Of a stretch of 64,000 nucleotides of DNA, positions 14,725-55,510 are shown piece by piece. The translations under genes were made by a program, and so were the position numbers. The DNA is from Mytilus edulis (taxonomy: Eukaryota), in the NCBI RefSeq assembly GCF_963676685.1, contig NC_092352.1, positions 80,972,001 to 81,036,000 on the forward strand, given 5' to 3'. Numbering within the stretch: position 1 is the first letter of the stretch; the number at the start of each line of letters is the position of its first letter. Under the pieces are notes generated by a model, which was not told the origin of the DNA, made no database searches, and was given only the letters and a program-made list of their open reading frames with translations.

Positions 14725-15144
14725 GGTAAAAATATGCAGGAAAATATCTGTAATATCATATTAAATGCATTTACTCAATTATAGTTATTTTGAACTCCTT
14801 CCTCTAAGATTTTTCATGTGAAATTAAAAAAAAAAAGGAATTGGAATTTAATATTGATACTTAAATTCTGATATTAGTTAAGGAACAAAATAAGCTAAAA
14901 AGTATTGATAGGCTGAAGAATTCATTTTTCAGATATTTGATATTGAAAAAAAAAATGGAAGCATAAGACTTTTACCTTATATAGATATAAGAAGATTTGA
15001 TATGATTTCCAGTGAGACAACTCCCTATCCAAGTAACAAATTGTAAAAGTAAACAATTTTAGGTCAAAGTACGGTCTTCAACAACACGATCTTACAATAC
15101 GAGACTCAAATAATGCAAATGCTAAATACATGTATAAATAAATG

Positions 15145-22294: not shown

Positions 22295-23608
22295 TTAACT
22301 CTTGTTGATGGTAATGTTCAAGTTTGTTATTGTACATCCCTGGATCATTGGAGCTTGTAGGAAAGGTCTAGGGTTGCTGACTGTAGTAAGTGCGTGATAT
22401 TCACAGAACAAGTCATTGACGTTGACACCTTCAAGATCTTGAATTATAGGGAAAGTTGTTGAAGTTGAAACAAGTTCGCTTGAAGTAGTTGAAACCGGCA
22501 TGAGTGCTGCAGTGTTTGTAGCTGGCATAACTGAAAGGGAAGACGGTTGTTGGCCACGAACAGAGTTTGTGATAATTTCACCCATTACTTGTTTCTCTCT
22601 GTTTGAAACACGTTGGTATACTGCAACAGAGGATGCGGATTTATGGCCTGTCACGGACATTATCTGTGCCATTGAACAATTTCTTCCGAGAATAGTTGCG
22701 CCTGTTGCTCTAATAGAGTGATTGGTGTATGTTGTGGACAGGCCTACTTTATTACTAAGTGTCGACAAGAAAGATGATAATGTGTCTTTTCCTATGGGAC
22801 GTTTTGTGTACCAGCATTCATCACTGGAGTTGAAACTTTCTTTTGGATATTGCCAAAGTCTATCAGAATCTGGATGCAACTTTGAAAGGTAGGTTTCAAA
22901 ATTTTTCACAGGACAATATTCAGGCATTTCAGGATCTTCAGGCATATGCCCAGACACTTTCTCATGATCGGATTCTCTCTGATTTTTTGTCATTTCATCT
23001 ACCTTTTTAAGAATATACTTTCGGCCAGTATTTGCGTAAGTTTTGACAACGAACGTTTCCTTTGTCATGGATTCCATATTTTCATTTGCTCTGCGGCAAA
23101 AATATAAACGAATGTTCATTTGAACACGGTTTGCTAGCCCAAATGGTGTACTTGGGTCCAAATAAATGCTATTATATAGCTTGGTAAGATCCTCAGATTC
23201 TATATCAGGGTAGTGAACAATGTCCCCTTTCCCAACTGATTTTATTTCTGCTTTGGCTGTTTTGAAACACTCATTTGCATCTGTAAACTCCGTGTTTTTG
23301 ATTAAATCAAATTTTTTCAAGAAGGGTGGACTTTTCAGATATCGATTTAATGCATGCCTTGTATTAATCAAAGTGGTAGATTTGTACATTTCCCCTTCTT
23401 TTGTGCGGGCATCCATATAAAAATGAGAAAGTGTTTCCGCAAGTCTGTTAATTTCAAAGCTTTCAAAGTTTGTGTCCATGTTTTTTTCCCGTAAATATGA
23501 GCGAAGTAAATTTGCTGCACCCTTATTTGCCTTGGTTGTGTTTACAGGAACCAAATTCTGTTTTTTTGCAATAACATCTTCTTCAGAATGAGAAGCAAAC
23601 CGCTTCAT
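22295..23608 (-). CDS. Crypton tyrosine recombinase (DUF3504 / KCTD1-ZMYM-related family), 437 aa
   Basis: Catalytic set intact: R in YFCRRANE, HxxR in TNHSIRAT, H in VTGHKS, Y in SVAVY; family motifs FYMDARTKEGEMYKSTTL, CPVKNFETYLSK, WYTKRPIGKDTL. Confidence 0.92.
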   Translation of the reverse strand: MKRFASHSEEDVIAKKQNLVPVNTTKANKGAANLLRSYLREKNMDTNFESFEINRLAETLSHFYMDARTKEGEMYKSTTLINTRHALNRYLKSPPFLKKFDLIKNTEFTDANECFKTAKAEIKSVGKGDIVHYPDIESEDLTKLYNSIYLDPSTPFGLANRVQMNIRLYFCRRANENMESMTKETFVVKTYANTGRKYILKKVDEMTKNQRESDHEKVSGHMPEDPEMPEYCPVKNFETYLSKLHPDSDRLWQYPKESFNSSDECWYTKRPIGKDTLSSFLSTLSNKVGLSTTYTNHSIRATGATILGRNCSMAQIMSVTGHKSASSVAVYQRVSNREKQVMGEIITNSVRGQQPSSLSVMPATNTAALMPVSTTSSELVSTSTTFPIIQDLEGVNVNDLFCEYHALTTVSNPRPFLQAPMIQGCTITNLNITINKS

Positions 23609-23798
23609 GTTGCCTTGTTTGATCTTGTTTTGTTTTGCAGACGATATTATGAGTGCGCATAAACGGAAATTATTAGTTTTGTTATTTTTTTTACAAATAA
23701 TTTTAATATAATTTTTTTTTCTGAAGTAGCTGATGCATAAATATAACTAAAATTTATATTTATTACAATGTAATTGACATGTTTATCGCTGAACCAAG

Positions 23799-27621: not shown

Positions 27622-28204
27622 TTTGAAGTATAAAGTAAAATCACAAAAATACTGAACTTAGAGAAAAATATAATTTAGATATATTACACGATTATATAAT
27701 TATAAATGTCTTATCAAAATGTGTTATGTTTGTTTAGCTAAGATGGTGGATCGCTGTCGAATCGACATATACTTTTAGTCTAAAAATCCAAAGTTAAAAG
27801 TCATTATCGAGGCATAGTAGTGTACGTAAACCACACACAATTTGTTTCCAAATGAATGGTTGAAGTATAAATCTTTAATAAGTAAGCCACTAGACAATAA
27901 TTCAATCAGAGTAAATTATTTTTGACAACTTAATGTTTTGTGACAAACATGTATCCTCGTAAAGGACGAAAACAATTGAAAATGCATAAAGATCATACTT
28001 ATTTTTTATTATTTATTCATATACAATATTTTGCCGCCAATTTAATATCAAATTTACAAATGAAAATTCGGTTAAACAACAGTCTTTCTATGTTCATGCT
28101 TTCTGTGTACTACTTTTAACTGTTACACAACCCTAACCTTTTAAACATCTGTATATTGTTCTGTAGCATTCGTTCCATGCAATAAAATGCCTTGTCAAAC
28201 TGTC

Positions 28205-29162
28205 AAAATTTGGTCGTTGACGTGTACAACATATAAGCTTACGGAGACTTTGTCAGTATTTTGTCGATAGGAAGGTATACAAAATAGGATTGATACAACT
28301 GTTGGCATACGCTTAGATCTCCGAAGTTGCTTGAATACTATATATTAAAATGTAGTTATAAAAATTTCCAAAGGCGATAAACATATTCATGAGGTGATAT
28401 GAACAAATACAATCACTATAAGGAGTATCCTCTTTGCTACTCTCTTCATCAGCTTCATACGTGTGGCACGTTGACTGGTACCCAGAACAACTCCGTATAA
28501 AACTTGTTTAACTATTACACCATAAAAGACACATATCGAAATCTATTATAACACATATCCAAAAACAAGAAAATAAGACAACAATCTTCTGCCAAAGGTC
28601 ATGGACATACTGCATTCTGATGGTTCTGATTTACCAAACTCGTTTGTTTCAAAAATTACTGGAAGATAAGAACCAGATACAACAAGCCAAGTGATCAAAA
28701 CGACCAGGTTAACATTCCGTCTGGTTCTGAATTTCTTTGATGTGATTGGGTGAACTATTGCTAGATAGCAGTCTACAGACATCAGAACTAAGGTATACAC
28801 ACTAATCGTTGCGGAAACATACAAAAGATAGTTTGATAATTTGCATACAATGTCACCAAATACCCGACTGCCTTTGAAGTATGTTGTAACTATGAAAGGA
28901 ACATATACCATAATATATAAAAATTCAACAACGCCTAGGTTAACTATAAATATGCCTGTTGTATTCTCCTTCTGCCTTTGTGAACAAACAGCAATAATCA
29001 CGAACAGGTTCCCTAAACAGCCAACTTGTATGGTCAGTCCGTAAATAATAAGTAGGATAAGTTCAAGAATGCATTGAATTTCAACTTGAGTTTCAATTAG
29101 TGCAAGCTCTTCTGCAATTTCTGAAGCAGATATATGTTATATGACACTGTGAGGTTGGTCAT
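28205..29162 (-). pseudogene. Allatostatin-A/galanin receptor-like GPCR pseudogene (copy 1)
   Basis: Paralogous to 37545-38507; 2-bp insertion shortly after the ATG at 29162 shifts frame; DRY changed to DCY; stop at 28546 after GYVL; deletion in TM6; stop in TM7. Confidence 0.88.
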
Positions 29163-31011
29163 GTTTTAATGGTCTAATAGTTTGGTTAAATGGTCCTTCA
29201 ACCTTTGAAAGTAACCCTGAAAATAACAAGGATATATTATTAACAAGTCAAATAATCAAAGGAATCACGCTTCTTCCTCCGTCCATAGACATCTGGCAAA
29301 TAGTCAGTATAACACTAGAATTACATTTCTCAATTATCAAACCATATAAAGGGGTTAGACATACAAGGCTTATAATAAACTACCAATGTAAAATAGAGCG
29401 GCGGATGTTAGCAAAGCAAAATTTAATCTTGTAAGTCGATGATATACTGGCAACGCCATGGATAAATACAACAACAATCAAGAAGCAACATGAAACTACC
29501 AAAAATTCAAACAAATTAGGGTGTATATAATACAGCATAAAAAGCTAAAACTTGGCAATTAGAAACCATAAAAACAATGGTTGATCTGAAAGGCTCCGGA
29601 AGAGTAAGCAGATCGCTCCAGATCCACACGTGGTACCCGCCGTTAATTTGCACAACAAACGCAATTTACGCCAACAGCACACAAATTAAACAGTAGGCAG
29701 ACCAAGTTGATAGGGTACATTTTTATAATTATTCGAATAATGAGACCGGCAAAAGTCAGTCCGTTAGTTTTCCTGTTTGAATTGTTTTACATGTGTCATT
29801 TCGAGGCCTTTTGAGGCTTGCAGTTTGGTATGGATTGTGAAGATTGCTGAAGGCTGTATGATAACCTGTAAGTGAATTTTCTTTGTCAGTGAGTCTCTGG
29901 TGACGAGTTGTATCCTTGGAAATCGTACCGTATCGTCCTGTTTCTATATAAAGAACATTTTAAAAAATATAATGCTTTTTGTATTGAATTTTGAAATTAC
30001 AATCCTCATAAATGGAGATCTAGAAAACCCTAGGTGTCCTTACATTTTCAGACTAACTCACCACAAAATGATCTAACTATGTTTTGTTAAAGTAAAATGC
30101 ATTTATATATTTTTTAATATTTAATGTTATACTTGTATAATACTTTCTGCTGGCAGTTATTAATGAGATTTATTTACAAAATGGTTTAGCCATCTAACCT
30201 TAATGTGTATAATATGTAGATATGTTTTATTTGTTTTCAATCTTAATTCCATACAGAATGCATATGAACTGAGCTTAATACTTAGAACTTTAATCTTAAA
30301 CTAAGGCAGAGTGAACAATCTAATGAGTTTAGTAATGACAATACCTTGAACACTTTTCCACCATTGTGTTACCAAACTGCATGCAGATACTGAAAAAAGG
30401 ATGTCCAAATTCATGAGTTAAAAAACTGTAATACTATGGCCGAATACGAAAAATTACCAAACGATAACTAGCCATGAGAGTTAAAATACAATGAAAGTAA
30501 GCTATTAAAAGCAACCATACAGCCTTCAACAACGAATCGACCTACTTCGTAAAATCAGCTTTAAAGGGAAATCAGACTATTTATACTACTGATGATATTT
30601 TTTTGAAATTTTGAATGTTGATAGATCATATATACTTATTTCAATATTTTAGGCGGAAAAAAATTGGGTCACCGATGTTGTTTTTGAGATATGACGACGT
30701 CTAAAGGTAAAAAATCGCGTTATACCGAAACATAGAAATAGCGCTCTAAGTAACTAATTGAAGGCAAAATTATTGAAAAATGTTGTTTTACTGCTTTAAC
30801 ATAAACAGTCAATTTTAACTTTTACATTATACACATTCATTTCTCTCTGTTTCCTTATTTTTCAAGGACTTTGGATATTTCCCGCCAATTGTTAGTCATT
30901 ATAGATTTTTCTTGAAATAAAAAAAGAAATCTACTAATGTTTTTTCGTTCAAACTTCTGCATGAGTTGCAGCTTCAGGGAAGAATTTAAAAGCATGAATA
31001 ATAAAAATGAA

Positions 31012-31048
31012 ACGCGCGTTTCGTCTACAAAAGACTCATCAGTGACGC
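31012..31048 (-). ncRNA. Hammerhead ribozyme truncated at its cleavage site
   Basis: GCGUCA-CUGAUGA-GUC(UUUUGUA)GAC-GAAAC-GCGC-GU followed by unrelated flank. Confidence 0.8.
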
Positions 31049-31237
31049 TCGAATCCGAAAAAGTTAAAAAGGCCAAATAAAGTACGAAGTTGAAGAGCAT
31101 TGAGGACCAAAATTCCTAAAAGTTTTGCCAAATACAGTTAAGGTAATCTATACCTGAGGTAGAAAAGCCTTTGTATTTCAAAAAATTCAAAAATTTGTAA
31201 ACAGTTAATTTATAAATATAACCATATCCATGACAAT

Positions 31238-31712
31238 GGGCCATTCCAGTTAATATCTGCTAAAGGGGGGTGGATGGTCCTTTCTGAGGGGTGTAAAATT
31301 TATTCATCTTGGGGGTGAAATTTTGGGTTTTTTCATCTGACACGTACACTTATACGCAAAAATTTCTGAGGGTCTTACAGGAGTAAATAATTAAAAATAA
31401 TTACATCTTAGGGGTTACAAAAAATACCTATTTCAGATCTTAGGGGTGCTTTGGAATGAAGACAGTTTCGTATCATGCATTATCTGGTATTGTATTTAAA
31501 ATTCTGATGGGTGCAATCCTTGCAGTAAAAAATTCTGATAGGTCAATTTTTCCCATGAAAGCCCATCCACCCAATATGAACAGAAACTCTACATCTGATA
31601 GGTCTTAATTAATAGATCTGATAGGTAGTTTTTCATGATGTTTTTTTCTGATAGGTATGAAAAAAAATCTCCCCATCCATCCCCACCTGTCAGAAATTAA
31701 CTGGAATGGCCC
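31238..31712. mobile_element. PIF/Harbinger-like MITE nested in the ribozyme array
   Basis: 17-bp perfect TIR GGGCCATTCCAGTTAAT; 3-bp TSD AAT; the neighbouring unit shows the empty site GACAATTCATG at about 32075. Confidence 0.9.
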
Positions 31713-31847
31713 AATTCATGTCAGCACAAAAAGTGCTGACTACTGGGCTTGTGATACCCTCGGGGAAATAAATCTCCACCAGCAGTGGCATCGACCCAGT
31801 GGTTGTAAATAAACTTTTCATAGATACCAGGACTAAATTTAGTATAT

Positions 31848-31891
31848 ACGCCAGACGCGCGTTTCGTCTACAAAAGACTCATCAGTGACGC
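31848..31891 (-). ncRNA. Minimal type I hammerhead ribozyme, intact core
   Basis: Stem I GCGUCA/UGGCGU, core CUGAUGA, stem II GUC/GAC, GAAA, palindromic stem III AC-GCGC-GU, GUC cleavage triplet (cut between 31854 and 31853). Confidence 0.9.
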
Positions 31892-32212
31892 TCGCATTCG
31901 AAAAAGTTAAAAAGGCCAAATAAAGTACGAAGTCGAAGAGCATTGAGGACCAACATTCCTAAAAGTTTTGCCAAATACAGCTAAGGTAATCTATGCCTGA
32001 GGTAGAAAAGCCTTTGTATTTAAAAAAATTCAACTATTTGTAAACAGTAAATTTTTAAATATAACCATATCAATGACAATTCATGTCAGCACAAAAAGTG
32101 CTGACTACTGGGCTTGTCATACCCTCGGTGAAATAAATCTTCACCAGCAGTAGCATCGACCCAGTGGTTGTAAATAAACTCATCATAGATACCAGGACTA
32201 AATTTAGTATAT

Positions 32213-32256
32213 ACGCCAGACGCGCGTTTCGTCTACATAAGACTTATCAGTGACGC
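32213..32256 (-). ncRNA. Minimal hammerhead ribozyme with core mutation (CUGAUAA)
   Basis: Same fold as 31848-31891 but conserved G8 is A. Confidence 0.75.
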
Positions 32257-35200
32257 TCGAATCCGAAAAAGTTAAAAAAGCCAAATAAAGTACGAAGTCG
32301 AAGAGCATTGAGGACCAAAAACAGTACCGAGTCTGTTTATAAGATATGTAGGGTATGTCCAAAGTATTAACAACGAATATAAATGGATGTCGTGTTATAT
32401 GAATAAAATCAAAATTAAAATGTTCATGTTGTCTGTAAAATAGATATAAGTACCTATGATAAATGTATGAGTACAAGTGCCAATAAGACAACTCTCCGAA
32501 AAAGTATACGATAAAGCCACACATATATATAGTATCTAACTCAATAGAAGTAGTCATTTGTTAGAACATTAATTGATGAGTACTAGTGCCAATGGGACAA
32601 CTCTCTGTAAAAGTACATAATAAAGCCACCTATATTTGCTAACCTAACTAACAGAAATATTCATTTGTTAGAACATTTATTTATGTGTTAATGTGTTTGT
32701 AATCTTTCCTCATGAGCATTTAATCTGGTTTTCATAGAAAATGTCAGGATTATGATAAACAATCCATCCTATATGTTCTGTTTAACCTATGATCATATAG
32801 ATTTTCGTGATACTAAAACTACCATATATTTTGACAGTTTATCAATTAATTGTAAATTGTATAATTTATGACTCTCAAGATAATTGTCAAGTTTTATTAT
32901 GACATTCCAATATATGAATTTTAGAATGTAGCAGTTTAATTTGAGGAAGGCGAATAGTAAGTTAAGAACATGTGAAATTTGAGGTGACATATAAGTTTAA
33001 AATATTACCGTAAACAAGAAAACCAATTGAGTTATTGTTGCATTTTTTCTTTATCCATGTAACGTTTTGCATCTTAATGAAATATTAATGCTAATCAACT
33101 GCAAATGACCTTCTCTAAGGAAAAGTTATGTCGTGAAATTTGGTTACATATTGACCACACTGTCAATTCAAATATTCTTTTGAAAAAACAGCGAATTAAA
33201 CGATTTCTTTCTCGAAGATCGACAGCAAATTTTAACAATTTTTTTTTTTTGTCCTCACGTTTATCGAAAGACGATATATGACGTTGATAGGTAGCTTGTC
33301 GTATTTTTTTAACATTCAAAGTATAGCTCTTAACTTATTTCTGGTGACGTCTTATTGTACGTACTCAAGCACATGCACAATAGTTCTTTGTTTCAATAGA
33401 TGTTTGTTCTTTGACAGAATAATATCTCGGATGTTTTCAACGTTATGATCAGAACAACGATATTGGTTGTGTACTGTACAATTGTTGTTTTTGTCTGTAT
33501 TTGTTTTTCTGAGATGTAAACATTATCATAGTATTTTCATATAAACGGCTGATGCTAATCTTTTCAGTGTGACCTTATGGTTGATCGTACTGGCCTGGTT
33601 TTATTGTTCACAGCGACAGTAAAGTTTATAATCAAAAGGGAGTCCATTTGAGGATGTATAAATTCTCAGTTACATCCCTTCGAAATGAAGAGAAGGCAAA
33701 TTATTTCTGCCCTATCCAAAGTGCAACCATTTTACCACGATAGGTCTAAACTCTCCGTTAACTCATGAGTGATTTTTGTATTTTCGAGAACAATGGATTT
33801 TAATTTCCCAATAGAATATTGAAAATGTCAACATTTTATTAGCTATTGGTCTATTCAAGAGGGAAGCTCCCGTTGTCACTTATGAATGTAAGGTACACAG
33901 AGTTTGCTATGAAAGTACAATACATTTATAATGATATATGTCATATATTACAACTAAAATTGAGAATGGAAATGGGGAATATGCCAATGAGATAACAACC
34001 CGACCATAGAAAAAAACAACAGCAGAAGGTCACCAACAGGTCTTCAATGTAGCGAGAAATTCCCGCACCCGGAGGCGTCCTTCAGCTGGCCCCTAAACAA
34101 ATATATGCTAGTTCAGTGATAATGAACGCCATACTAATTTCCAAATTGTACACAAGAAACTAAAATTAAAAATAATACAAGACTAACAACTGCTTTATAT
34201 AATAATATATTTAGTGTTTGTGTGAATGTTTAGAACAAAATATAACGTTGATATGTAAGGGTGGATAAATTGTGAACAATGATTGTATTAGAACAAACCG
34301 TGAAGCTACATCTCATGGTAATATTTCTTATGCAGATATGTTACTGTTCTTATAAATGGTACATGGTATTTTAACTCCGAGTCTTTTCTCTAATAGTGTT
34401 AAGAATTGTATGTCTTGTTTACTGCATTCTTAAATATTGTTGGCAAACTTTCGAAACATTATTCTCAATTTCGCTATACTAGAAACATTATTCTGATCAT
34501 CATATATCCAAGTCATCGACTTCTATGCAAAAATCACAAAGTACCTATGGTTTGTTTTCGGTTAGAAACGGACTTAAGGTATAACATACAATCGCTTGGA
34601 GTCTTCAAAATAAAAGTATTACAGATTTAAGTGGTTGTCGCTTATTGTTGAATTTCATATAATATTGTTCATGATTTGTAGTTGTTCTTTTGTTACGCAA
34701 CAGTGCAATGTTAGGGGATCCCGGAGGACTGGCGCCTTTAAACCTCTCCCAAGTCACAAGCCTGTAGTTTAGTGGTTGTCGTTGGTTCATGTCTGTATTA
34801 TATGTTTTTTGTAAATTATTTTGTTATAAATAAAGCAGTACATGTTCTTAATTGAATAGTTTTGTACTTTTCATGTTGGTAACTTTTACAGCCGACTAAA
34901 CGGTATGGGTTGTTCTAATTTTTAAAGGCTGTAAATAATATAATGGTCTAATGAATGTGGTTAATGCTTGCCATTCACGTATTTTTGTATGTTATATACG
35001 CATAAAAATGATGTGTTAATTAACTGCAAAGTAATTTATAGTATTACGTTACGTAAATACTGTAGTAGTTTCTACTGAAAAACAAAACGTTACAATTACT
35101 TTTATTACCGTGAGTAAAACATTCCAGTAATATAACAAGGATATATCTTTCATAATTGCTACTTATGTTGAGGGCTTTATCAAGATGTAACCCATGCCGA

Positions 35201-37054: not shown

Positions 37055-37544
37055 AATGTTTTGCCGGAGCCTGTTTTGTTTTTTAAACTGAGATGGTGGG
37101 TTGCTGTCTAATCGACATATACTTTAGTCTAAAGATCCACAATTTAAGTCATTATCGCGGTATAGCAGTTTACGTGAACCACACATCCTTTTTTCCATAG
37201 AAATGGTTGAAGTTTAAAAAAATAAGTCAATAGACAAAAAATCATTTAGAATGATTTGTTATTAATAACTAAATGTTTTGTGACAAACATTCATCCTCGT
37301 AAAGGACGAAAACATTTGAAAGGTGCCTAAAGATGATACATTATTTTTTTATTAGATATATATATACAATATTTTGCCGCCAATTTAATATCAACATATA
37401 TAAGCATTCGGTTTTACAAAATTCATTCCAATTCTCATGTTTTTTCTGTACAAATATATGCTGTTACGTGAACCTATCTTCTGAAACATCTATTTTGCTT
37501 ATTTATCATTCGCTCCATGCAAAAATATTGCAGTGTCTAAAATG

Positions 37545-38507
37545 CTAAATGTTTGAATTATTTTGTCGTGCACGTTTACAACACAGAAGTTTACGAACAC
37601 TTTGTCTGTATTTTGTTGAGAGAAAGGTATACAAAATAGGATTTATACAACTGTTGGCATACGATAAGAGCTCCGAAGTTGCCAGAATGCTATATATTAA
37701 AATGTAGTTATAAAATTTTTCAAAGGCGATAAACATATTTATGAGGTGATATGGTAACCAACAAATAGCAAAAACAATCACAACAACAAGTATCCTCTTT
37801 GCTACTCTCTTCATTGGCTTCCTATTTGTAGCACTTCGACTAGTGCCCGGAACAACTCCATACAAAATTTGTTTAAGTATTACACCATAGAAGACACATA
37901 TCAATAATAATGGAAGCGCATATCCAAAAACCAGAAAACACACCGTCAATCTTCTGAAGGAGGTCATAGACATACTACATTCTGATGGTTCTGATTCATC
38001 AAACAATACCGGAATATAAGAAACAGATATAACAAGACAAGTAAGAAATAAGATCTGGTTAGCATTCTGTCTGGTTCTGAATTTCTTAGATGTAATTGGA
38101 TGAACTATTGCTAGATAGCGGTCTAGAGACATCAGAACTAGGATATACACACTAATCGTTCCGGAAACATGTAAAATATAGTGTGACAGTTTGCACACTA
38201 TTTGACCAAATACCCAACTGCCTATGACGCGTGTTGTAACTATGATAGGAACATATACCATGATGAATAAAAAATCAACAATGGCTAGGTTAACAATTAA
38301 TATGTCCGTTGTATTCCGCTTCTGTCTTTGTGAACAAACAGCAATGATCACGAACAGGTTTCCTAAACAGCCGACTGGAAAAGTCATTCCGTGTATTATT
38401 GGTATGATAAAACTTAAAATGCGTTGAAATTCTTGAATTTCAATAAGTATAAGCTCTTCTGCAATGTATGCAGCAGACATGTTATATGACACTGTAAAGT
38501 TTGTCAT
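37545..38507 (-). CDS. Class A GPCR, allatostatin-A/galanin receptor-like, intronless CDS, 320 aa (copy 2, intact)
   Basis: Seven hydrophobic segments; GN (TM1), NLAIVD (TM2), WVFGQIVCK, LVLMSLDRYLAIVHP, CWLP, NSCINPILY, C-terminal CC; N-glycosylation sequons NFT and NMS; 5' UTR acceptor TTTTTTCAG at about 38562. Confidence 0.92.
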   Translation of the reverse strand: MTNFTVSYNMSAAYIAEELILIEIQEFQRILSFIIPIIHGMTFPVGCLGNLFVIIAVCSQRQKRNTTDILIVNLAIVDFLFIMVYVPIIVTTRVIGSWVFGQIVCKLSHYILHVSGTISVYILVLMSLDRYLAIVHPITSKKFRTRQNANQILFLTCLVISVSYIPVLFDESEPSECSMSMTSFRRLTVCFLVFGYALPLLLICVFYGVILKQILYGVVPGTSRSATNRKPMKRVAKRILVVVIVFAICWLPYHLINMFIAFEKFYNYILIYSILATSELLSYANSCINPILYTFLSTKYRQSVRKLLCCKRARQNNSNI

Positions 38508-41048
38508 GTTTTATTGGTCTGATATTGTGGTTCAATGCTCCTTCAACCTTTGAAACTAACCCTGAAAAAAATAAGGATATATCATTAACAAGTCAAACTA
38601 ATCAAAGGAACCAAGCTTCTTTCTATGACGTAGGATAACTGGAAAATAATTAGTTTAATCGAATAGCATTTCTCAAATATCAAGACAATATAAAGCCTTA
38701 TAATAAACTATCAAAGTACAAAAGAGCGGCAGAAGTTAGCAATTAGAAATTAAATCTTGTAAGTTGATGACATACTGACAACGCCATGGCAAAAAACAAT
38801 AACAACCAACAAGCAACATGAAACTCCCAAAAATACCAACAAAAAACACCAAAACAAACAAAGGTATACAAAAAATAAAAAAAAAAACAGCCCCCCCCCT
38901 AAAAAAAAATAAAAATTGACAATTAGAACCTTATAAAAGCAAGGATTGATCTGATGTGCTACAGAAGAGTAATTAGATCGCTCCAATTCCTCACGTGGTA
39001 CCCGCACTGAAAATGCGTAACACACGCAATTCAAGCCAATAGTACCCAAATTAACAGTAGACAGACCAAGTACAATGTAGATAGGGTACGTGTTGAAGTT
39101 TATTATAGCAACGTGAGACGTAGACACTGAAATACGTATTATAAGTATACTTTATATACAAAAATGTATTTAGTGTAAATATTTATTCATTACTTTATTC
39201 ATTTCATTTAATTCATTTTTTATTAACTTAGATTTGTTATTAAGTCATTTTATTCTTTCGCATACTGAGACCAGCAAAAATCAGTCCGTTAGTTTTCTTA
39301 ATTGACTTGTTTTACATTTGTCCGTTCTAGGCCCTTTGAACTTGCTGTTGCGGTTTAGATTTTTTTAAATATTGTTGAAGGCCGTTTTGTAACCTAAAAG
39401 TACATTTTTCTTTTGCAGTTGGTGTCTGGTGAAGAGTTGTGTTGCTGGCAATCATACCGTATCGTCCCATTTTATATATAACGAATATTCTGGACATATA
39501 CAGAATTTGCCCGCTTTAACATCATCAATTGCATTTTGTAATTACAAGCATACCCCAGTTATCTTAACGTTTTTCTTACTAACTTACCACATAATGATAA
39601 AAATACGCTGCAGTGGTTATGAATTGTGTATTGAATTGAAAAAACTATTTCCATAAATAATATAATCATGCAATTAGTCGATTATCATAAAAATGTACGC
39701 GTTTTCAAAGGATTTAAATAAAGGCAACAGTAGTATACCGCTGTTCAAACTCGTAAATCGATGGACAAAAACAAGATCGGGGTAACAAGCTAAACCTGAG
39801 GGAAACGCATTAAATATAGGAGGAGAACAACGACACAACATTAAAATGTAACACACACAGAAACGGACTTAGCATTAGACTTACATGACTAAATCCGATA
39901 AGAATAACAAATATAACATTTAAACCAAATACATGAATTTGGGATAGAAAAGTACCGTGACACGTCATAAATATGAATTCACACTCAAATATAAGAGAAA
40001 ACAAACGACACAACGTTAAAATGTAACACACACAGAAATGAACTATAACATAACAATGGCCATATTCCTGACTTGATGCAGGACATTTTTAAAAAGAAGC
40101 ACTAAAACATTTATATTGTGTTTTGTCGACATTTGGAAGAAATCAACTAGACTAAGTACTAGATTTTGAGATAAAGCACTAATTACAATGAGATCTGTGT
40201 TTCGTATCCATTTGTTTATTATGATTTCATTAAAATCAATAATCGTATCCTCATCTCTTTAACGAAAAAAAATAAAGTACAAGAATTTCCTTTATACAAT
40301 TTAAAGAAACAAATATAAGATATAAATAATAAAAATGAAAAATCCATACTTTTTTGCATATTGCGAAATACGATACAAAAAATCAAAACTGTATTAAGTA
40401 TAAAGAATAAAAAAGAATAAAAAAAAATTTACACGACATTCATACAAATCGGCGAGTAAATACGCCTGTATTCAATTTTGAAATGATTTTAATCAAAGAA
40501 ATTTATCTCCTTCTTGCAAAGCTGTGACTCCTTGTCGTGATTTGTTTATAATGTTCGTTTGTATATGGCTTTTGATTTTCAAATATTTAAGAGTAAGATT
40601 GAAAAAAATGTAACTGCCTGTTAGGCCTTATGAGTTTCATAAATTAATAAAACAATATATATAAATTCAAATTTGTTCTTTGGCGTTGCATAATCCAGCT
40701 ATATCTAAGGGAGGGGGTTTCTTACCCCGGATAAGGGTGGTCCAACTATATGTCCCTATCTATATGCATTGATCGTCAAAAAAGAGGGTTCTAATAACCA
40801 GAGCCCCCTTTGGATTCGCCACTGTTCTGAACAGATAGTGGTATCTGGGTTTTTAATACATGGGATTATATTGCAAGTAGTTGGGTTTTACAATTTCTTA
40901 ATTATACTTTCTTTTATTCAGCTGCCTCAAAAAAAAACCATGTTTTATTCAAATTTAAGTAAAATGCATTTAAATACATGTTACAATGCTCAAACTAATG
41001 ATTGTAGTAATTGCCATACTTTTGATACTTTACCACCATTTGGTTACC

Positions 41049-42349
41049 AAAAGAGGGACGAAAGATACCAAAGGGACAGTCAAACTCATAAATCTAAAAC
41101 AAACTGACAACGCCATGGCTAAAAATAAAAAAGACAAACAGAAAAACAATAGTACACACGACACAACATAGAAAACTAAAGAATAAACAACACGAACCCC
41201 ACCAAAAACTAGGGGTGATCTCAGGTGCTCCGGAAGAGTAAGCAGATCCTGCTCCACATGTGGCACCCATCGTGTTGCTTATGTGATTACAAATCCGGTA
41301 AATAGTCTAATTCGGTAGGTCATATTCATGAAAGGGAAGGGGATTGTAGTTACGACGTAAGGAACATATCCGATATCATTTGTAAAACGGTTATTCCATA
41401 ACGGTCAACCAACTCGTGATGGCGTCCGTAAAATTTACGAAGGGATGATTTCAACTTCACTATTTGGAACTCTTGGTTCTTGGCTCTTGTGAGCAGTAAA
41501 CCTCTATCAAGAAAATCATGATAGGAAATGCAAGCACGGGAATATCGTATCAATTGGGAGATATATACCCCGTATGCAGGTGCTGCTGGAATGTTGCTAC
41601 TTAGAAATGGAAAGTTCACAATTGGAAAGCTGAAATCATCTCTTTTGTCATAAAGTTTTGTTTTCAACCTACCCTCATTGTCAATTTCTAGATGTAAGTC
41701 AAGATATGAAGCCGACTTAACTGTATCTGTAGTATCCTTTATCTCTAGTTCGATTGGATAGATGCGTTCCACATAGTCACCAAATTTTGAATTGTTTAGT
41801 GAAAGAACATCATCTATATAGCGGAAAGTAGAGTTAAAGGATATAGCTAACTTCTTATCTTCCTTCCTAAGAAGTTCCTGCATGAAGTCAGCCTCATAAT
41901 AATAAAGAAACAAGTCGGCGAGTAGAGGGGCACAGTTTGTTCCCATTGGAATGCCGACAGTCTGTTGAAAAACACGTCCTCCGAACGTAACAAATATGTT
42001 GTCAATCAAGAAATCAAGCTTCTTGATAATATCAGTTTCAGAGAATTTTTTGTTTGAATCAGAGTGATTCTTTACAAAGTAGGATTTATCCCTCCCTAAG
42101 ACAAGATATTTGTATCTACGTTGGCCATTCTTTTTTATGAAGCAAAGTAATATCAACTCTTTCAATTTGTCTTTTAGTTTGGAATGTGGAATACTTGTGT
42201 ACAGGGTAGAAAAGACAAATGTTTTAATACTGTTACAAGATGAAAGAGAGTTAGATGGTATGTACTCTAAAAGATCTTTGGAATTTTTAAGTATCCACAT
42301 CTGATTCACGCCACCTCTAGAATAGGCAGTTTCACAATAACTTTGAAGC
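41049..42349 (-). mobile_element. 5'-truncated Penelope-like retroelement (RT region plus 3' UTR)
   Basis: Partial RT ORF followed by a 300-bp UTR that recurs at 45004-45224, 48580-48879 and about 62270-62470. Confidence 0.85.
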
Positions 42350-42351
42350 AA
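41350..42351 (-). CDS. Partial Penelope-like reverse transcriptase (N-terminally truncated, probably non-functional)
   Basis: Motifs FSTLYTSIP, FQQTVGIPMGTNCAPLLADLFL, RYIDD, SYLDL, TKLYDK; the first catalytic Asp motif reads TFVF; no true start; no C-terminal GIY-YIG. Confidence 0.8.
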   Translation of the reverse strand: MLQSYCETAYSRGGVNQMWILKNSKDLLEYIPSNSLSSCNSIKTFVFSTLYTSIPHSKLKDKLKELILLCFIKKNGQRRYKYLVLGRDKSYFVKNHSDSNKKFSETDIIKKLDFLIDNIFVTFGGRVFQQTVGIPMGTNCAPLLADLFLYYYEADFMQELLRKEDKKLAISFNSTFRYIDDVLSLNNSKFGDYVERIYPIELEIKDTTDTVKSASYLDLHLEIDNEGRLKTKLYDKRDDFSFPIVNFPFLSSNIPAAPAYGVYISQLIRYSRACISYHDFLDRGLLLTRAKNQEFQIVKLKSSLRKFYGRHHELVDRYGITVLQMISDMFLTS

Positions 42352-42893
42352 ATTTTCGAAAAACAGATATGTCAGCCTTTGATGAGCTGCAATCTACAGG
42401 CACATGCAAAATATTGCTGGGTTGAATATGTTTATGATCGTTTAATCCTTCCAAACCTGGGACAATGATGTAACTCAGCCCAAAGTTAGAACAATCTGTA
42501 AAAGTAAGTCGGTTTGGTGTTATTTAAAAAATCGATAAGAGGCAAGAGCCCCCCCCCCCCAAAAAAAAAAACCCCCAAACAAATGAAACCAACAAACAAA
42601 CAATTAACATAAAACAATAAAGAACAACACCCAAAATCAGAGTACTCCAAGTTACTCAAAGACAGAAACTATTTCAAATACAACTACTAGTCTTAGATCA
42701 TTTTCGTCTCGACTTATATGGTAATTTTAATAAATTTTCTGTTTACAAAACTTTGAATTTTTAAAAAAACTAAGGATTGTCTTACCCTAGGAGTAGATTA
42801 CCTTAGCCGTATTTGGCACAACTTTTTGGAATTTTGGATCCTCAATGCTCTTCAACTTTGTATTTATTTGGCTTTTTAACTATTTTGATATGA

Positions 42894-42937
42894 GCGTCAC
42901 TGATGAGTCTTATGTAGACGAAACGCGCGTCTGGCGT
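42894..42937 (+). ncRNA. Minimal type I hammerhead ribozyme, intact core, in a solo retrozyme-like fragment (about 42725-42970)
   Basis: GCGTCA CTGATGA GTC TTATGTA GAC GAAAC GCGC GTC TGGCGT; predicted cut after 42931. Confidence 0.9.
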
Positions 42938-44379
42938 ATAAAATTATAATCCTGGTACTTTTGATAACTACTTACGTATCAATCAGTACACACCCAACAG
43001 ATTTAGTAATAGTCGATATAAATAGTCTGATAAATGCACGCGACCTTGAGCAATAGCAAATTATAATACAACAGTTTCGAGTTGTTTATTTATTCATTAT
43101 TATAAATTATGTACAGTTGTCCAAAGTATAAACAACGAATTTGAATGGATGTCGTGTCGTGTAGTTTTGAATAAAATTAAAATCAAGTTTTTCATTATGT
43201 CTATAAAATAGATATGAGAAGATGTGGAACAAGTATAATCACCAATGAGACAAATCACCGTCAAAGTATATAACAAAGCCACCTATATATGCTAACCTAA
43301 TTAACATGTTCTAATCGTTAGAACATTAATGTATGTGTTAATTTGTTTTAAATCTATTCCCATGAGCATTTAATTTGGTTTACATGGTATGACGATGAAA
43401 ATGTTTGGATCAAGATAAACAATCCCTCGTATATGTTTGGTATTGGTCTACGATCATAGATATTTTCTTGGTACTAAAACCACCTATTATTCTGACAGTT
43501 TGTCAATTAATCTTAAATTGTATATAAGTCTCAAGATAATTGTCAAGTTTTATTATGACATTCCAGTAAAGGAATTGTAGAATGTAGAAGTCTGCATATT
43601 CATAATACAATGAGGAAGACAACTATGAGAAATTATAGTTTTTGTTGACGTTAACACCGTACTTTCTCTGATGTCAGACTGTTTATGACAGTATTTATCC
43701 ATGTAACGTGCCTCTAAATAAAATGATAGTAAGCTGCAAATTACATTCTTCAAGGAGCTGTTATGTCGTGAAATGGTTACTGAATCCAAATTACACAATT
43801 CAAATATTCATCTATCTATGTTAATTTGTATTTTTTCTTTTAAAAAAATCCACCGAATGAAACGAGCTCTTTTTCGAAGATCGACAACAAAAATTTAGGA
43901 AATATGTATTTGTTCCCAAGTTTGACGAAAGACTATGTATGATGTTGAGAGGTAACCGTCGTAGCTTGTTGTGTTTCTAGAAGAGAAACAGACACACCAA
44001 AGAGATATTAAAACTATAGTGGCAGAATGCAGCCATGAAAGAAAAAAAACCTATGTAGTTCCCTCCAGCTTCCAAGTCGTTTCCTCCAAATGCTATGTCA
44101 TTCTAACAAGAAAGTTATCTTGTTCCCTCAAGATAGTATGTAATGTGACATAAAATACGAAAACATTTGAAACGTGCATAAAGATCATACATTATTGGAT
44201 ATTTGTAAACAATATGTTGCAGCCAAATAATATCAAATTTACAAATAAAGCATTCGGTTATACAAAAGTCATTCAATACTCATGGTTTCTCTACTAGTAA
44301 TAGTTAATAAACAACCTTATCCTCTTAAACATTGGTTTTACTTTCCAAATCATTTGTTCCATTTAAAACATTGCAGTGT

Positions 44380-45541
44380 CTAAGTGTTTAAATTATTTGG
44401 TCGAGGACGTTTACAACACAAAAGTTTACGAAGGCTTTGTCTGTATTTTGTTGAGAGAAAGATATACAAAATAGGATTTATACAACTGTTGACATACGCT
44501 AAGATCTCCGAAGTTGCGAGAATACTATATTTCCAAATATAGTTATAAAAATACCAAATGCTGTAAACATACTTATGAGGTGAAGCGGTAACCAACACAT
44601 AGCAACTACAATCACTATAACGAGTATCCTCTTTGCTACTCTCTTCATTCGCTTCATACGTATAGCACTTCGATTAATGCCCGGAACAACTCCGTATAAT
44701 TGTTGTTTGAGTATCAAACCATAGAAGAAAAATATTGATAATAACGGAGCCACATATCCCAAAACAAAAAAACAAGCCTTTAATCTTCTGCTAAAGGTCA
44801 CGGGCATACTGCATGCTGATCGACTGTTCAAAGTAAATATTCTGTTTCAAAACTTACGGGAAGATAAGAACCAAATAAAACAGGCCAAGTGAGAAAAACG
44901 ATTAGGTCAACATTCTGTCTGTTTCTGAATTTCTTGGATGTGATTGGGTGAACTATTGCTAGATAGCGGTCTAGAGGCATCAGAACTAAGGTATAAACGC
45001 TAAAACAGGGACGAAAGATACCAAAAGGACAGTCAAACTCATAAATGTAAAACAAACTGACAACGCCATGGCTAAAAATGAAAAAAGACAACAAAAAAAC
45101 AGCACACATGACACAACATAGAAAACTAAAGAATAAACAACACGAAACCCCCCCCCCCCCAAAAAAAAAAAACCCCAACAAAAAACAAACAAAAAACAAA
45201 ACTAGGGGTGATCTCAGGTGCTCTTAATCGTTGCGGACACATACAAATACGCAGCTGCCTATGACGCGTGTTGTAACTATGAAAGGAACATATACCATGA
45301 TAAATAAAAAATCTACAATGGCTAGGTTAACAACTAATATGTCTGTTGTATTCTACCTTTGTCTTTGTGAACAAACAGCAATGATGACGAACATATTCCC
45401 CAAACAGCCGACTGGAACAGTAATTCCATAAATAATAGGTACCATAAAACTAAGAATGTGTTGAAATTCAATTAGTGCAAACTTTTCTGCAATTTTTGCA
45501 TCCGACATGCATATGTTATATGACATTGTGAAGTTGGTCAT
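44380..45541 (-). pseudogene. Allatostatin-A/galanin receptor-like GPCR pseudogene (copy 3)
   Basis: Stop at 45353 after QRQR; about 35-bp deletion removing the TM3 cysteine; retroelement insertion 45004-45224; further frameshifts near 44830 and 44520. Confidence 0.9.
45004..45224 (-). mobile_element. Penelope-like 3' UTR fragment inserted in GPCR copy 3
   Basis: Matches 41053-41230; TAA on both flanks; absent from the other three GPCR copies. Confidence 0.85.
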
Positions 45542-48332
45542 GTTTTATTGGTCAAATAGTTTGGTTAAATGCTCCTTCAACTTTTGAATATAAAGTGGCT
45601 TAGGATAAACTACAAATGTACAAAAGAGCAGCAGACGTTAGCAAAGGGAAATATAATCTTGTAAGTCGACGACAACGCCAAGACAAAAAAAAACCAATAA
45701 AAAAAACCAACAACCAAACCGCAAAATGAACCGACCATAATACAAACATATAAAAAATATAACATAAAAAACTTAAACTGGGCACTTAGCATCAAGTACA
45801 AAAAATGGTTGATCTGATGTGCTCCGGAAGAGTCAACAGAGCGTTCCTGACCACTTAATGCCACTGTAAGTGAAAATGCACAACAAACGCAAGTTACGCT
45901 AAAAGCACTCAAATTAAACAGTTGGTAAACCAGGTCGATAGAGCGCATTCTTATCAATTTAGATCTGTTATTAATTGATTTAGTTATTTGCATAATAAGA
46001 CCTGCAAAACAAATTCCATTAGTTTTCTTGTTGGAATTGTTTTACATTGGTCATTTCGTGGCGTTTTGAAGCTTACAGTTTGGTATCGATTTTGAAAACT
46101 GTTGAAGTCTGGAATGGTAACCTGTAAGTGTTTGTTTTTGTCAGTGGGTTTCTCGTAATGAGTTAAGTCCGTCGCAATTATACCGTATCGACCTATTTCT
46201 TTATAAATCTTTAAATATAATGAATAAAGATAACCTTAGCATAATAAATTGAAATTTGTAATTACAATATTTATAAATGGAGTTCTAGCAAACCACAGTT
46301 ATCTTAACGTTTTTTTCAAACTAACTTACCACAGAATGATCCAATTACGCAGCAGTTGTTATGAATTGTGTATTGAGATAAAATAATAATTTCCCAAAAA
46401 AAAAAAATTAATCATGCAATTAGTCGATTATAAAAATTATGTGCGAGTTTCAATGACATTTTAAAAGGATTTAGCATTTTTGTCTACATATGACACATCA
46501 GTGACGCTCAGATCAAAATAGTTATAAAGCCGAACAAGTTCAGAGTTGAAGAGCATTGAGGACCCACAATTAGTATAAAAAAAAGACTTGAGATGGACCC
46601 ATTTAGGGTTGTAGCTTACAAACTAGTTTAAATCCGACACCTTCTATATGTCTTTGTCCCAAGTCAGGAGCCTGTAATTCAGTAGTTGTCGTTTTTTCTT
46701 TTTATACATTAGGCCGTTACTAATATTCCTTGAATTGTTTGACATTTATCATTCGTGGACTACTATAGCTGACTATGCGGTATGGGTTTTCTCATTGTCG
46801 AAGGCCGTACGGTGATCCATAACAAATGTGAATTGCGATGTAATTTGGTCTTCTTTTTTTATGTACAGATAAATTCATAATTTATCACTATCATTATTTT
46901 AAAATGTAGTATATTGCAATATTTGAGTTGTCATAATGATACCTACTTTCAAACACTGATTAGGAACTTTCCGTTTGTAATATGTGTGTGATTTTACTTC
47001 TTAAAACCATATACATGTATTGTATTCTTTCTATAATTCCGTATCCAATCAATTTAATTTAACTGTTTTTAATATACAATTAAAGAATAAAGTGGCATAT
47101 ATATTGTATATGTACTCATATCTTAAGCTAGGTCAAACCAAAAACCATGCAATTAAAAATATAAATTAGTCCCGGGGAATTTTTAATCATAATCAAACCG
47201 CTAAAATAATTATATATACAGTACCTTCCTCACTCAAAGCTGTGGCTCCTTGTAGGGACTTGACTATACTTAAGGTTTAATGTTGGTTTGTAAAGAAGCA
47301 AACGACTGGCACTGAGGGGAGGAGGTTTGAACAGCCAGCATGAACGGTTGGCTTGTGTAGGCAAATATGTCAATATCTAAATTCAACACATTACAGTCAT
47401 AATAAATGAATTATTAACAACGTGTGCATCTTTTAAGAGTTTGGAAGTGTTTAAGGATAATAAAATATATTAAATGCTTGCCAATTTGATAAAATTCATT
47501 ATTTTGCTGTAGTCAATATACGCATGTGCAAACAACAGTTATTGGATTTAGAGCATGGGTTTATTTACAAAGCAAAAGAAGCACGTCATATTAGAATATT
47601 ACTTTTATACGTTTGATACCTTTGCTAGAACACTCTATGGTACCGTACCACCAACCTAGTAGCTCGAACTCCGGTACTTGTATGAAAATATTGTAAAAAT
47701 TGGGATTTTGTTTGATTGCGTTTAAAAATTAGAATGGAAATGGTATTAACACCGCGAGAGCATCCCACACCCTGAGACGGGCTTCAGCAAGTCCCTTAAC
47801 AAAATGTATACTAATTCAATGCAAATTGGACGTCTCACTTAACTCCAAAACATATAAATGAAATAAAATTAAAAAAAAAACACACACGACTAACAAAAAC
47901 CAGAAGCTTCTGACTTGGGACAGGAGCTTAATGCTTGTATCAAATTTTGAAAATGATTCTTATTTTTAGGAATAAGTGATATTAATTGTCACAATGCGAA
48001 ACAGATGAAGCACAAATAATGATAAGATTGAAAAATGTAACTCTATGTAAGGCCTTATGAGTTTCGTAAATTAACCTTGAATATAAATTCAAATTTGTAC
48101 TTTGGCTCTTCGTGATCAGTAGACAGAACAGATGTTAAAACTAGGTTTTTAAAACATATTGGAACATGCTGCTATTGAGAATTGAAATAGGGAATGTGTC
48201 AAAGAGACAAAAGAGCAGAAAAAAGTCAAAGGACACCAATGGGTGTTCAACACAGCGAGAAAACACAGTACCCAGAGGCCGTAAAGTGTACAAATTTAAA
48301 ATGGATGTAGTTCATTTTTTATATACTTAATT

Positions 48333-54041: not shown

Positions 54042-54449
54042 TCCCAATTAGCTCACCACGAAACAGTGATCAACATTGAAAGTTCGTGTTTTTTCTTATT
54101 TATTGTACCCCTGCACATTCATAATACGTCTTATTGTACCCATGTACATGCATAATACGTCTTATTGTACCCATGCACATGCATAATACGTCTTATAGTA
54201 CCCATGCACACGCATAATACGTCTTATTGTACCCATGCACCTGCACAATACGTCTTGTTGTATCCATGCACATGCATAATACGTCTTAATGTACCCATGT
54301 ACATGCAAAATACATCTTATTGTACCCATGGACATGCATAATACGTCTTATTGTACTATGCACATGCATAATACATCTTATTGTAACCATGCACATGCAT
54401 AATACGTCTTATTGTACCCATGCACATGCATAATGCGTCTTATTGTACC

Positions 54450-55041
54450 TGTTCCTGACCATATGAGTATTTGAACCATACGCGTATGGTCATGACCATA
54501 TGGTTATTTACTCATATGGTCCGACCATACGCGTATGGTCCGACCGTACGCGTATGGTCGGGGTAATTTACACTCTGTTACAGTTTACTTTTAATAATTC
54601 TAAACTCCTCATATGGTATGACCGTTCTTTAAAAAGACGCTATCATATAGGTCATTTTATTATATACCGTGTGGAAGTAAATGTCACCCCAAGCCTACAT
54701 GCAAGAACGTAATTAGCGATGAAAACTAACTATGGCATCAATATTTAATTTTTACGTAGGATTTGAATTATAAAATAATAGATTGTCATGTAACCATCAT
54801 TGATTTTTATCGGTTTTTTTTTAGATAAAGTTTTTGTATTATTGAAACTTTCATAATGTAATTTAAAACAAATACCTATATCATTGTATATGGTCAAATA
54901 CTCATATGGTCCGGCCCGTTAAAACCAAACGAGTATTATACTCATTTGGTCCGACCATACGCGTATGGTCGGACCATATGAGTATACGCATATGGTCATG
55001 ACCATACGCGTATGGTCCAAATACTCATATGGTCCGGAACA
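54450..55041. mobile_element. Ginger-like MITE (TGT..ACA ends, 4-bp TSD)
   Basis: About 95-bp TIRs starting TGTTCC and ending GGAACA; TACC duplicated (54446-54449, 55042-55045); minisatellite phase is restored on removal. Confidence 0.8.
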
Positions 55042-55211
55042 TACCAATGCACATGGATAATACGCCTTATTGTACCCATGCAAATGCATAATACGTCTTA
55101 TTGTACACATGCACATGCATAATACGTCTTATTGTACCCATACACATGCATAATACGTCTTATTGTACCCATGCACATGCATAATACGTCTTATTGTACC
55201 CATGCACATGC

Positions 55212-55510
55212 ATAATATAGGGTTATTGCATGAATATTGGGGAATATTGTCCCGAGTAGAATTTTATATTGCACGAGCTTGCGAGTGCAATATATGTTCT
55301 ACGAGGAACAATATTCCCCAATATTCATGCAATAACCCTTTTATTGTATAGCAATATAATATTTGAAAGTAAAAATTGGTTGAAACTAATATTTTGTCAT
55401 TGATGAGGTCATGAATTTTGAAGATTTATTGCACTAGTGCAATAATAGAATTTATTGCACGCTAACTTTTGGTTACTTTCTGTTGGAAATATTATATTAC
55501 TATACAATAA
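55212..55510 (+). mobile_element. Non-autonomous Crypton-architecture element
   Basis: Hairpin 55219-55339; 24-bp inverted repeats 55341-55364 / 55487-55510 (one mismatch); ATAATA direct repeat (55212-55217 and 56264-56269 once the nested insert is removed). Confidence 0.8.

What the first reader, a model, noticed from the sequence alone, without database searches (positions are those of the whole stretch)
31012..32320. Retrozyme-like tandem array of 365-nt hammerhead units
Seen: head-to-tail near-identical non-coding units, each with a minimal type I hammerhead whose stem III is the palindrome ACGCGCGU. Established: such minimal hammerheads act as dimers in tandem transcripts, and animal non-LTR retrozymes yield small circular RNAs thought to be copied by Penelope-like RTs. 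Inference: source or product of a 365-nt circRNA. In this copy only the middle ribozyme is complete and unmutated.
Basis: partly seen in the sequence, partly recalled or inferred. Interest (0 to 1): 0.7.

Follow-up and report, generated by a model that had tools for sequence, protein, structure and literature searches.

The report
Broken mussel retrozyme with Naiad signal
This is a damaged copy of a very common repeat, likely the known mussel 'retrozyme' whose RNA is predicted to cut itself into small circles, and its family shares a folded RNA signal and a fixed end point with Naiad jumping genes, which therefore likely supply the enzyme that copies it.

Summary
Real, but not a clean array. 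Its 3' tail and about 540 bp of flank are missing. The hammerhead core occurs 10,429 times in this genome, and size, copy number and host type fit the published mussel non-LTR retrozyme (sequence identity not checkable). The family is abundant in one RNA run; no read was assignable to this copy. Family-level result: retrozyme copies end a few bases before a 62-nt hairpin that also opens two active Naiad Penelope-like families, whose copies end at the same spot (59/73, 25/32 and 12/16 retrozyme groups; 27/27 Naiads). Seven hairpin pairs show compensatory change. Naiad reverse transcriptase likely binds this hairpin and starts just upstream of it. I did not find this link in print, but this scan noted it before on other DNA. 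Not in the notes I saw: all 12 copies of one Naiad family carry a decayed retrozyme body with a dead hammerhead in the 3' UTR.

The parts
31011..32320 (-). Retrozyme array remnant (365-nt subfamily): 5'-truncated stub, one intact unit, one MITE-interrupted unit; usual 45-50-nt 3' tail absent
32219..32320 (-). 5'-truncated stub (monomer positions 266-365), joined directly to host DNA that continues in paralogs
32213..32256 (-). Hammerhead 3: core mutated (CUGAUAA), GUC site and stem I intact; predicted cut between 32219 and 32218
31854..32218 (-). Intact 365-nt unit, cut site to cut site; the predicted monomer or circle (circular fold -87.6 kcal/mol, z -2.6 against 60 shuffles)
32105..32167 (-). 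Naiad-type hairpin of the intact unit; three pairs broken
31848..31891 (-). Hammerhead 2: complete type I motif; predicted cut between 31854 and 31853
31740..31802 (-). Naiad-type hairpin of the interrupted unit, commonest family sequence, fully paired
31238..31712 (.). 475-bp MITE with GGGCC... terminal inverted repeats and a 3-bp AAT target duplication; Pangu-like (PHIS) by its ends; at least 40 full-length copies at 94-97%
31011..31048 (-). Hammerhead 1: intact core, but GUU and no 3' strand of stem I; the array ends here
30560..31007 (.). Older interspersed repeat, cut off at 31007; paralog L154 continues for about 540 bp that the window lacks
41049..42393 (-). 5'-truncated Naiad (reverse transcriptase frame 42393-41353 and 3' UTR), 96-97% identical to intact 1000-aa copies elsewhere
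42716..42969 (+). Solo fragment of the 355-nt retrozyme subfamily with a complete hammerhead and the usual 3' end

Best explanation
This is a damaged genomic insertion of a non-LTR retrozyme, a non-coding repeat whose RNA is predicted to cut itself at hammerheads into unit-length pieces that likely circularise, and which was likely copied into place by the reverse transcriptase of a Naiad Penelope-like element. Shown here: the anatomy, the family size, expression of the family, a hairpin shared with two Naiad families, and a common 3' end just upstream of that hairpin. Shown in print for mussel retrozymes of this size: self-cleavage, circles, ligation by RtcB in vitro. Inferred: Naiad protein binds the hairpin, nicks DNA and starts cDNA 1-7 nt upstream of the hairpin (about 45 nt past the cut site); it then copies back across the cut or ligation joint and, on a circle, goes round more than once, giving arrays with a fixed 3' end and ragged 5' ends. 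At this locus it copied at least 2.3 units. Later a MITE entered one unit, and a deletion likely removed the tail with about 540 bp of flank. The copy is most likely a passenger now, though dimer folding could still release the 365-nt unit if it is transcribed.
For: Fixed 3' end within -6 to +3 nt of the hairpin in 59 of 73 hammerhead groups from a position-ordered sample and 25 of 32 from best-hit loci; 12 of 16 at -3 or -4 in a third family. Naiad-1: 15 of 15 long-frame copies end 1-7 nt before the hairpin (read by eye); Naiad-2: 12 of 12 end 1-6 nt before it. Hairpin over 6 sequences: 97.8% of cells paired, 7 pairs changed on both sides, 0 of 500 shuffles as high, slid controls 0-2 pairs. 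For Naiad-1 the hairpin is the only similarity to the retrozyme. Hammerhead covariation across families, including the palindrome ACGCGCGT to ATGCGCAT. 5' ends do not pile up at the cut site (39 against 23 at a control position), so copying runs through the joint. Units of one array are closer to each other than to any other locus in 9 of 12 arrays. Internal initiation producing the genomic 'tail' is shown for another Penelope-like enzyme (PMC11167929). Family RNA: 4,423 of 8,710,588 reads in run X24.
Against: No biochemistry. The circle cannot be told from an uncut multimer by these data, and in PMC11167929 uncut RNA was the main substrate and ribozyme mutants still inserted. Naiads make tandem copies with no canonical hammerhead (3370-bp and 4555-bp periods), so tandem arrays do not need a circle. 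This array itself lacks the fixed 3' end, and its two units (5.2% apart) are no closer than their nearest relatives elsewhere (4.1%). The covariation rests on six related sequences, five families; shuffles ignore relatedness. Only two Naiad families were examined, so the actual helper may be a third element. No target duplications above control (6 of 80 against 3 of 80 at 7 nt or more). No read is assignable to this copy.
Confidence: 0.72

Rival explanations
1. Naiad is the helper, but the template is a linear uncut multimer or a monomer that the enzyme jumps along, as Naiad must do for its own tandem copies; the circles are a by-product.
For: Naiads form tandems without a canonical hammerhead; uncut RNA was the main substrate for the anole enzyme; absence of a 5' pile-up at the cut site fits uncut RNA as well as circles.
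Against: Circles are 75-95% of mussel retrozyme RNA (PMC7229834). With initiation upstream of a hairpin, a daughter of a linear array has fewer hammerheads than its source (inference), yet arrays of 8 or more units exist. The joint is exact in 10,429 cores, which argues against sloppy jumps.
Confidence: 0.15
2. The unit is the terminal repeat of an autonomous hammerhead-bearing Penelope-like element, and arrays grow by DNA-level duplication, as argued for Xenopus.
For: All 12 Naiad-2 copies hold a 70%-identical decayed retrozyme body in the 3' UTR; bioRxiv 10.64898/2026.07.22.740005 proposes origin from pLTRs and unequal crossover; within-array similarity also fits local duplication.
Against: No canonical-order hammerhead in 15 Naiad-1 or 12 Naiad-2 long-frame loci; reverse-transcriptase fragments near 60 sampled loci show no constant spacing or strand; arrays keep the fixed 3' end and a truncated 5' end, as solo copies do. 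This rival may still describe the origin.
Confidence: 0.08
3. This copy was primed at the 3' end of a ribozyme-cut linear RNA, which is why it stops at the cut site.
For: The array ends one base before the cut site; weak 3'-end priming was seen in vitro.
Against: 3' ends at the cut site are not enriched genome-wide (24 against 36 at a control position), and paralog L154 shows about 540 bp of flank missing at the same junction, as expected from a later deletion.
Confidence: 0.05

Closest known systems
Mytilus galloprovincialis non-LTR retrozymes (Cervera and de la Pena 2020, PMC7229834; seen: passages, parts 2 and 4 of 6, section 14; supplement unreadable)
   Same: Type I hammerhead in non-coding, low-GC tandem units of 350-365 nt (paper: 350-390), thousands of copies (10,429 here, about 5,000 there), more than one related ribozyme family, abundant RNA.
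   Different: Sequence identity could not be checked. The paper names no helper, no fixed 3' end and no shared motif; the 2020 review says the repeats show no conserved motif pointing to the helper (PMC7761336). This copy is MITE-interrupted and lacks its tail.
Naiad Penelope-like elements (Craig et al. 2021, PMC8557442; seen: passages, supplement rows)
   Same: The partner elements have an N-terminal GIY-YIG domain, CxC and DKA motifs, a 1000-aa frame, 3.4-4.6-kb units, partial tandems and no canonical hammerhead. They share the hairpin and the 3' end with the retrozyme.
   Different: The retrozyme codes for nothing and carries an intact hammerhead. The passages I read describe no 5' hairpin and no Naiad-dependent retrozyme; they note only that retrozymes may exploit autonomous elements.
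Poseidon element of Anolis carolinensis, PAc (Frangieh et al. 2024, PMC11167929; seen: parts 1-2 of 4)
   Same: Reverse transcription starts inside the RNA downstream of the hammerhead, and genomic ends mark the start sites.
   Different: [quoted passage not shown]
Xenopus retrozymes as derivatives of Penelope-like terminal repeats (bioRxiv 10.64898/2026.07.22.740005; seen: parts 1 and 3 of 5, passages)
   Same: Sequence link between retrozymes and Penelope-like elements.
   Different: Vertebrate focus, no mention of mussel in the main text, link through hammerhead-bearing pLTRs; here the link is a hairpin shared with elements that lack a working canonical hammerhead.
Pangu group of PHIS DNA transposons (PMC4482050; seen: passages)
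   Same: The 475-bp insert has GG-starting inverted repeats and 3-bp ANT target duplications (AAT or ATT in 9 of 9 copies parsed, of 15 fetched).
   Different: No transposase; assignment rests on the ends only.

Membership tests
Metazoan non-LTR retrozyme | Type I hammerhead in each repeat unit | tested here: met
   Three motifs here, one complete; covariation across families, 4 pairs changed on both sides, 0 of 500 shuffles
Metazoan non-LTR retrozyme | Tandem units of about 150-450 bp, GC under 50%, non-coding, dispersed copies | tested here: met
   365-nt unit; no long frame; 135 matches from 40 scored of 2,862 candidates on many contigs
Metazoan non-LTR retrozyme | Two consecutive complete hammerheads ('active' by the 2026 preprint's rule) | tested here: not met
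   Only hammerhead 2 is complete in this copy; other arrays of the family meet it. This lowers 'active copy', not family membership.
Metazoan non-LTR retrozyme | Self-cleavage of the RNA | not testable with these tools
   Predicted folds only
Metazoan non-LTR retrozyme | Expressed as unit-length circular RNA | tested here: inconclusive
   Family reads abundant in X24; circles cannot be told from tandem transcripts; no read fits this copy wholly
Published M. galloprovincialis retrozyme family | Sequence match to the cloned repeats (GenBank MN642551-MN642576, supplementary figures) | not testable with these tools
   Supplement too large to read; motif search in full texts found nothing
Naiad (for the partner elements) | GIY-YIG domain N-terminal to the reverse transcriptase | tested here: met
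   Pfam GIY-YIG at residues 130-223 and RVT_1 at 640-853, both below curated cut-offs; VVYG/YVGET at 130/143
Naiad (for the partner elements) | CxC and DKA motifs | tested here: met
   C.C at 426 and DKA at 553 in Naiad-1; both visible in Naiad-2
Naiad (for the partner elements) | No canonical hammerhead | tested here: met
   None by my canonical-order pattern in 15 + 12 loci; permuted hammerheads were not tested
Naiad-mobilised non-autonomous element | Same insertion end and shared cis-element as the autonomous partner | tested here: met
   (family level; this copy has lost its end)
Naiad-mobilised non-autonomous element | Reverse transcription by Naiad protein | not testable with these tools
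   Needs purified protein

The most novel reading that the evidence does not exclude
Mussel retrozymes are ribozyme-made RNA circles that parasitise Naiad through one 62-nt hairpin that fixes the start of reverse transcription; the circle replaces the strand jump that Naiad needs for itself. The hammerhead module has also sat inside a Naiad 3' UTR (Naiad-2), where it died separately in two sublineages, so retrozymes either budded from a hammerhead-bearing Naiad or were captured by one.
Probability: 0.55. Interest if true: 0.7.

Novelty: new member of a known kind. Interest (0 to 1): 0.5.

Why it matters
The copy itself is one of more than ten thousand and probably inert. The family result matters more: the helper of animal retrozymes has been a guess, and the 2020 review says no motif points to it. 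A named enzyme with many intact copies, a 62-nt covarying hairpin and a start site predicted to within a few bases make the rolling-circle model of retrozyme spread directly testable, and give a defined cis-signal for the Naiad clade, which dominates bivalve genomes.

Tried and rejected
Rfam at gathering thresholds: no hit in the window. Tandem Repeats Finder: array not reported. The 42.9-kb hammerhead as the terminal repeat of the adjacent Naiad: rejected, since full-length Naiad-1 has no such segment and the two are separated by about 320 bp. Recurrent 5' truncation points seen: partly duplicated loci, and the position-ordered sample is spread; dropped. Pile-up of 5' ends at the cut site: 39 against 23 at a control position, about 85 against 62 after my correction for flank composition; of 20 such loci read, 16 are true ends and 4 are mutated hammerheads; at most a weak excess. 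3' ends at the cut site: not enriched. Target duplications: not above control. Run search: no RNA holder listed among indexed rows; contig runs X1, X3, X8 are only guessed to be RNA and are not used as evidence. Read ends at the cut site: none listed in X24, uninformative for a fragmented library. One search used too short a gap and its zero means nothing. One search used a mis-registered structure; one search is the correct count. Literature searches for the Naiad link and for the motifs found no paper stating it; subscription journals and the supplements of PMC7229834 and the preprint were not seen and may bear on this.

Full report
Observation. The minus strand of 31011-32320 carries three type I hammerhead motifs with the palindrome ACGCGCGT at 31012, 31855 and 32220. 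Spacings are 843 and 365 nt. The 843 is a 365-nt unit plus a 475-bp element with terminal inverted repeats and a duplicated AAT; that element has at least 40 full-length copies at 94-97% and ends like the Pangu group (PMC4482050 passages). The array is therefore a 102-nt stub, one intact unit and one interrupted unit. Only hammerhead 2 is complete; hammerhead 3 has a core change and hammerhead 1 stops one base short of its cut site. A full descriptor matches twice in the window and never in 100 shuffles. Rfam and Tandem Repeats Finder miss it.

Family. The genome is 1.37 Gb with 14 large contigs and holds 10,429 exact copies of the 35-nt core. Units of about 365 and 355 nt share that core; a third family of 350 nt has 1,757 exact copies of a 29-nt marker and a diverged hammerhead with palindrome ATGCGCAT. 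Four hammerhead pairs change on both sides across five sequences, 0 of 500 shuffles as high; nearly all of that signal comes from the third family. This fits the mussel retrozymes of PMC7229834: about 5,000 motifs, 350-390-bp repeats, cleavage at about 0.1 per min, mostly circular RNA, ligated by RtcB in vitro. The supplement was unreadable, so identity with that family and the mussel host are inferred. In raw RNA run X24, 4,423 of 8,710,588 reads lie on 631 bases of the array at 88% or more, most only in part because they come from the 355-nt subfamily. At 99%, 127 reads lie on it, all only in part, none on the flanks or the MITE interior. The family is expressed; this copy is not shown to be.

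Fixed 3' end. I fetched 60 stretches covering the first 77 of the 100 listed core matches and dropped one duplicate (L052). Of 73 hammerhead groups, 59 end within -6 to +3 nt of a motif that starts 44-50 nt past the cut site, 10 end elsewhere and 4 could not be placed; a few groups are local duplicates. In 24 best-hit loci (the window's own and five overlapping loci dropped from 30), 25 of 32 groups do the same, and some misses are locus edges. In the third family 12 of 16 end at -3 or -4, three at -10 and one at +126. 5' ends are scattered; median length of the 59 is 233 nt and 43 are solo. This is the pattern of target-primed reverse transcription from a fixed internal start.

The partner. 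A Naiad reverse-transcriptase fragment lies at 41353-42393, with many intact relatives at 96-97%. Full-length copies have a 1000-aa frame with N-terminal GIY-YIG, CxC and DKA motifs, the marks given in PMC8557442, and no canonical hammerhead. Their only similarity to the retrozyme is about 70 nt at 77%, directly before the start codon, and it is the motif above. All 15 copies end 1-7 nt before the place where that motif would follow. A second Naiad family, 63% identical in protein, has a diverged version of the motif, and 12 of 12 copies end 1-6 nt before it. The motif folds into one long bulged hairpin in all five families: 97.8% of cells pair, 7 of 23 pairs change on both sides, 0 of 500 shuffles reach that, and slid controls give 0-2. 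The sequences are few and related, so this is support, not a probability.

Mechanism. For the anole Poseidon enzyme, reverse transcription starts inside the RNA and genomic ends mark the start sites (PMC11167929). By inference, Naiad protein binds the hairpin and starts just upstream of it. On a cut linear monomer that gives only 45 nt, so longer copies need a circle, an uncut RNA or a jump. 5' ends at the cut site are at most slightly in excess (39 against 23) and the joint is exact in thousands of copies. A linear array yields daughters with fewer hammerheads (inference), yet long arrays exist, and units within an array are closer to each other than to other loci in 9 of 12 arrays. This favours the circle. 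Against: Naiads make tandems without a hammerhead, uncut RNA was the main substrate in vitro, local duplication also explains within-array likeness, and the window's own array is one of the three exceptions.

This locus. The 5' end at 32320 joins host DNA seen in paralogs. The 3' end lacks the tail; paralog L154, 330 kb away, has about 540 bp between the two flanks that the window lacks, including the rest of an older repeat cut at 31007. 3' ends at the cut site are not enriched genome-wide (24 against 36), so a later deletion is the simplest account. Could it still make a 365-nt RNA? The minimum-energy co-fold of hammerheads 3 and 2 is the double hammerhead, and that of 2 and 1 puts core 1 on site 2; intact cores on intact sites score -21.4 kcal/mol against -6.7 for the monomer fold of hammerhead 2 (different constructs, no joining penalty in the first). 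Both sites bounding the intact unit could thus be cut. But the MITE widens one spacing, and all three unpaired cells of the hairpin table belong to this unit, so it would likely be a poor template.

Origin clue. All 12 Naiad-2 copies carry in the 3' UTR a segment about 70% identical to 210-280 nt of the retrozyme body, including a hammerhead with ruined core and cut site, ruined differently in two sublineages. Window 56037-56261 is a piece of that UTR. Either a retrozyme cDNA was captured or retrozymes budded from a hammerhead-bearing Naiad; I cannot give the direction.

What is known. The class is published. The review PMC7761336 says no conserved motif identifies the helper; the 2026 preprint links vertebrate retrozymes to pLTRs and does not mention mussels in its main text. 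Searches found no paper stating the Naiad hairpin link. This scan's earlier notes do state it, on this and other genomes; I reached it before reading them, and they are not independent support. A word search for the decayed UTR copy returned no note. One note reports permuted hammerheads in Naiads; I did not test that, so 'no hammerhead' means no canonical-order one.

Verdict. A real but damaged copy of a known kind of element; interest lies in the family-level helper signal. Interest 0.5.

Noticed in passing
L198:3396-3680 and the same segment in L199-L209; window 56037-56261: Naiad-2 3' UTR holds a decayed retrozyme body with a dead hammerhead, decayed differently in two sublineages; one sublineage also has a partial second copy about 230 bp upstream.
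   Followed up: partly
L131:75-1713: About 20 perfect 83-bp tandem copies of the Naiad-1 hairpin plus start codon directly upstream of an intact Naiad frame; a hairpin-only array without a ribozyme.
   Followed up: no
L173-L197 (G000 C1): Third retrozyme family, 350-bp period, arrays of 13 or more units, hammerhead CUGAAGA with AUC site and palindrome ATGCGCAT.
   Followed up: partly
window 27685-29972, 37072-39704, 44151-46455, 60724-63496: Four diverged tandem paralogs of a rhodopsin-family receptor gene on the minus strand, some broken; the array lies about 1.9 kb upstream of one.
   Followed up: no
window 42970 and 32318, paralog 49236-49447: Two independent retrozyme insertions of different subfamilies sit about 100 bp apart in homologous positions of paralogous segments.
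   Followed up: partly
window 22298-23746: 483-aa frame with DUF3504 and tyrosine-recombinase matches, Crypton-like by recalled knowledge.
   Followed up: no
window 13012-14760: 583-aa single-exon B-box, coiled-coil protein, TRIM-like.
   Followed up: no
window 3644-5697 and 6938-8987: 2-kb inverted duplication at 97.5% identity.
   Followed up: no
window 54100-56978: 31-bp minisatellite blocks interleaved with palindromic segments.
   Followed up: no
L170-L172 (G000 C8:58725492-58726208): A 342-bp-period array in which every unit lacks the 3' strand of stem I: the same deletion was amplified with a ribozyme that should be dead, which suggests arrays can grow without cleavage.
   Followed up: no
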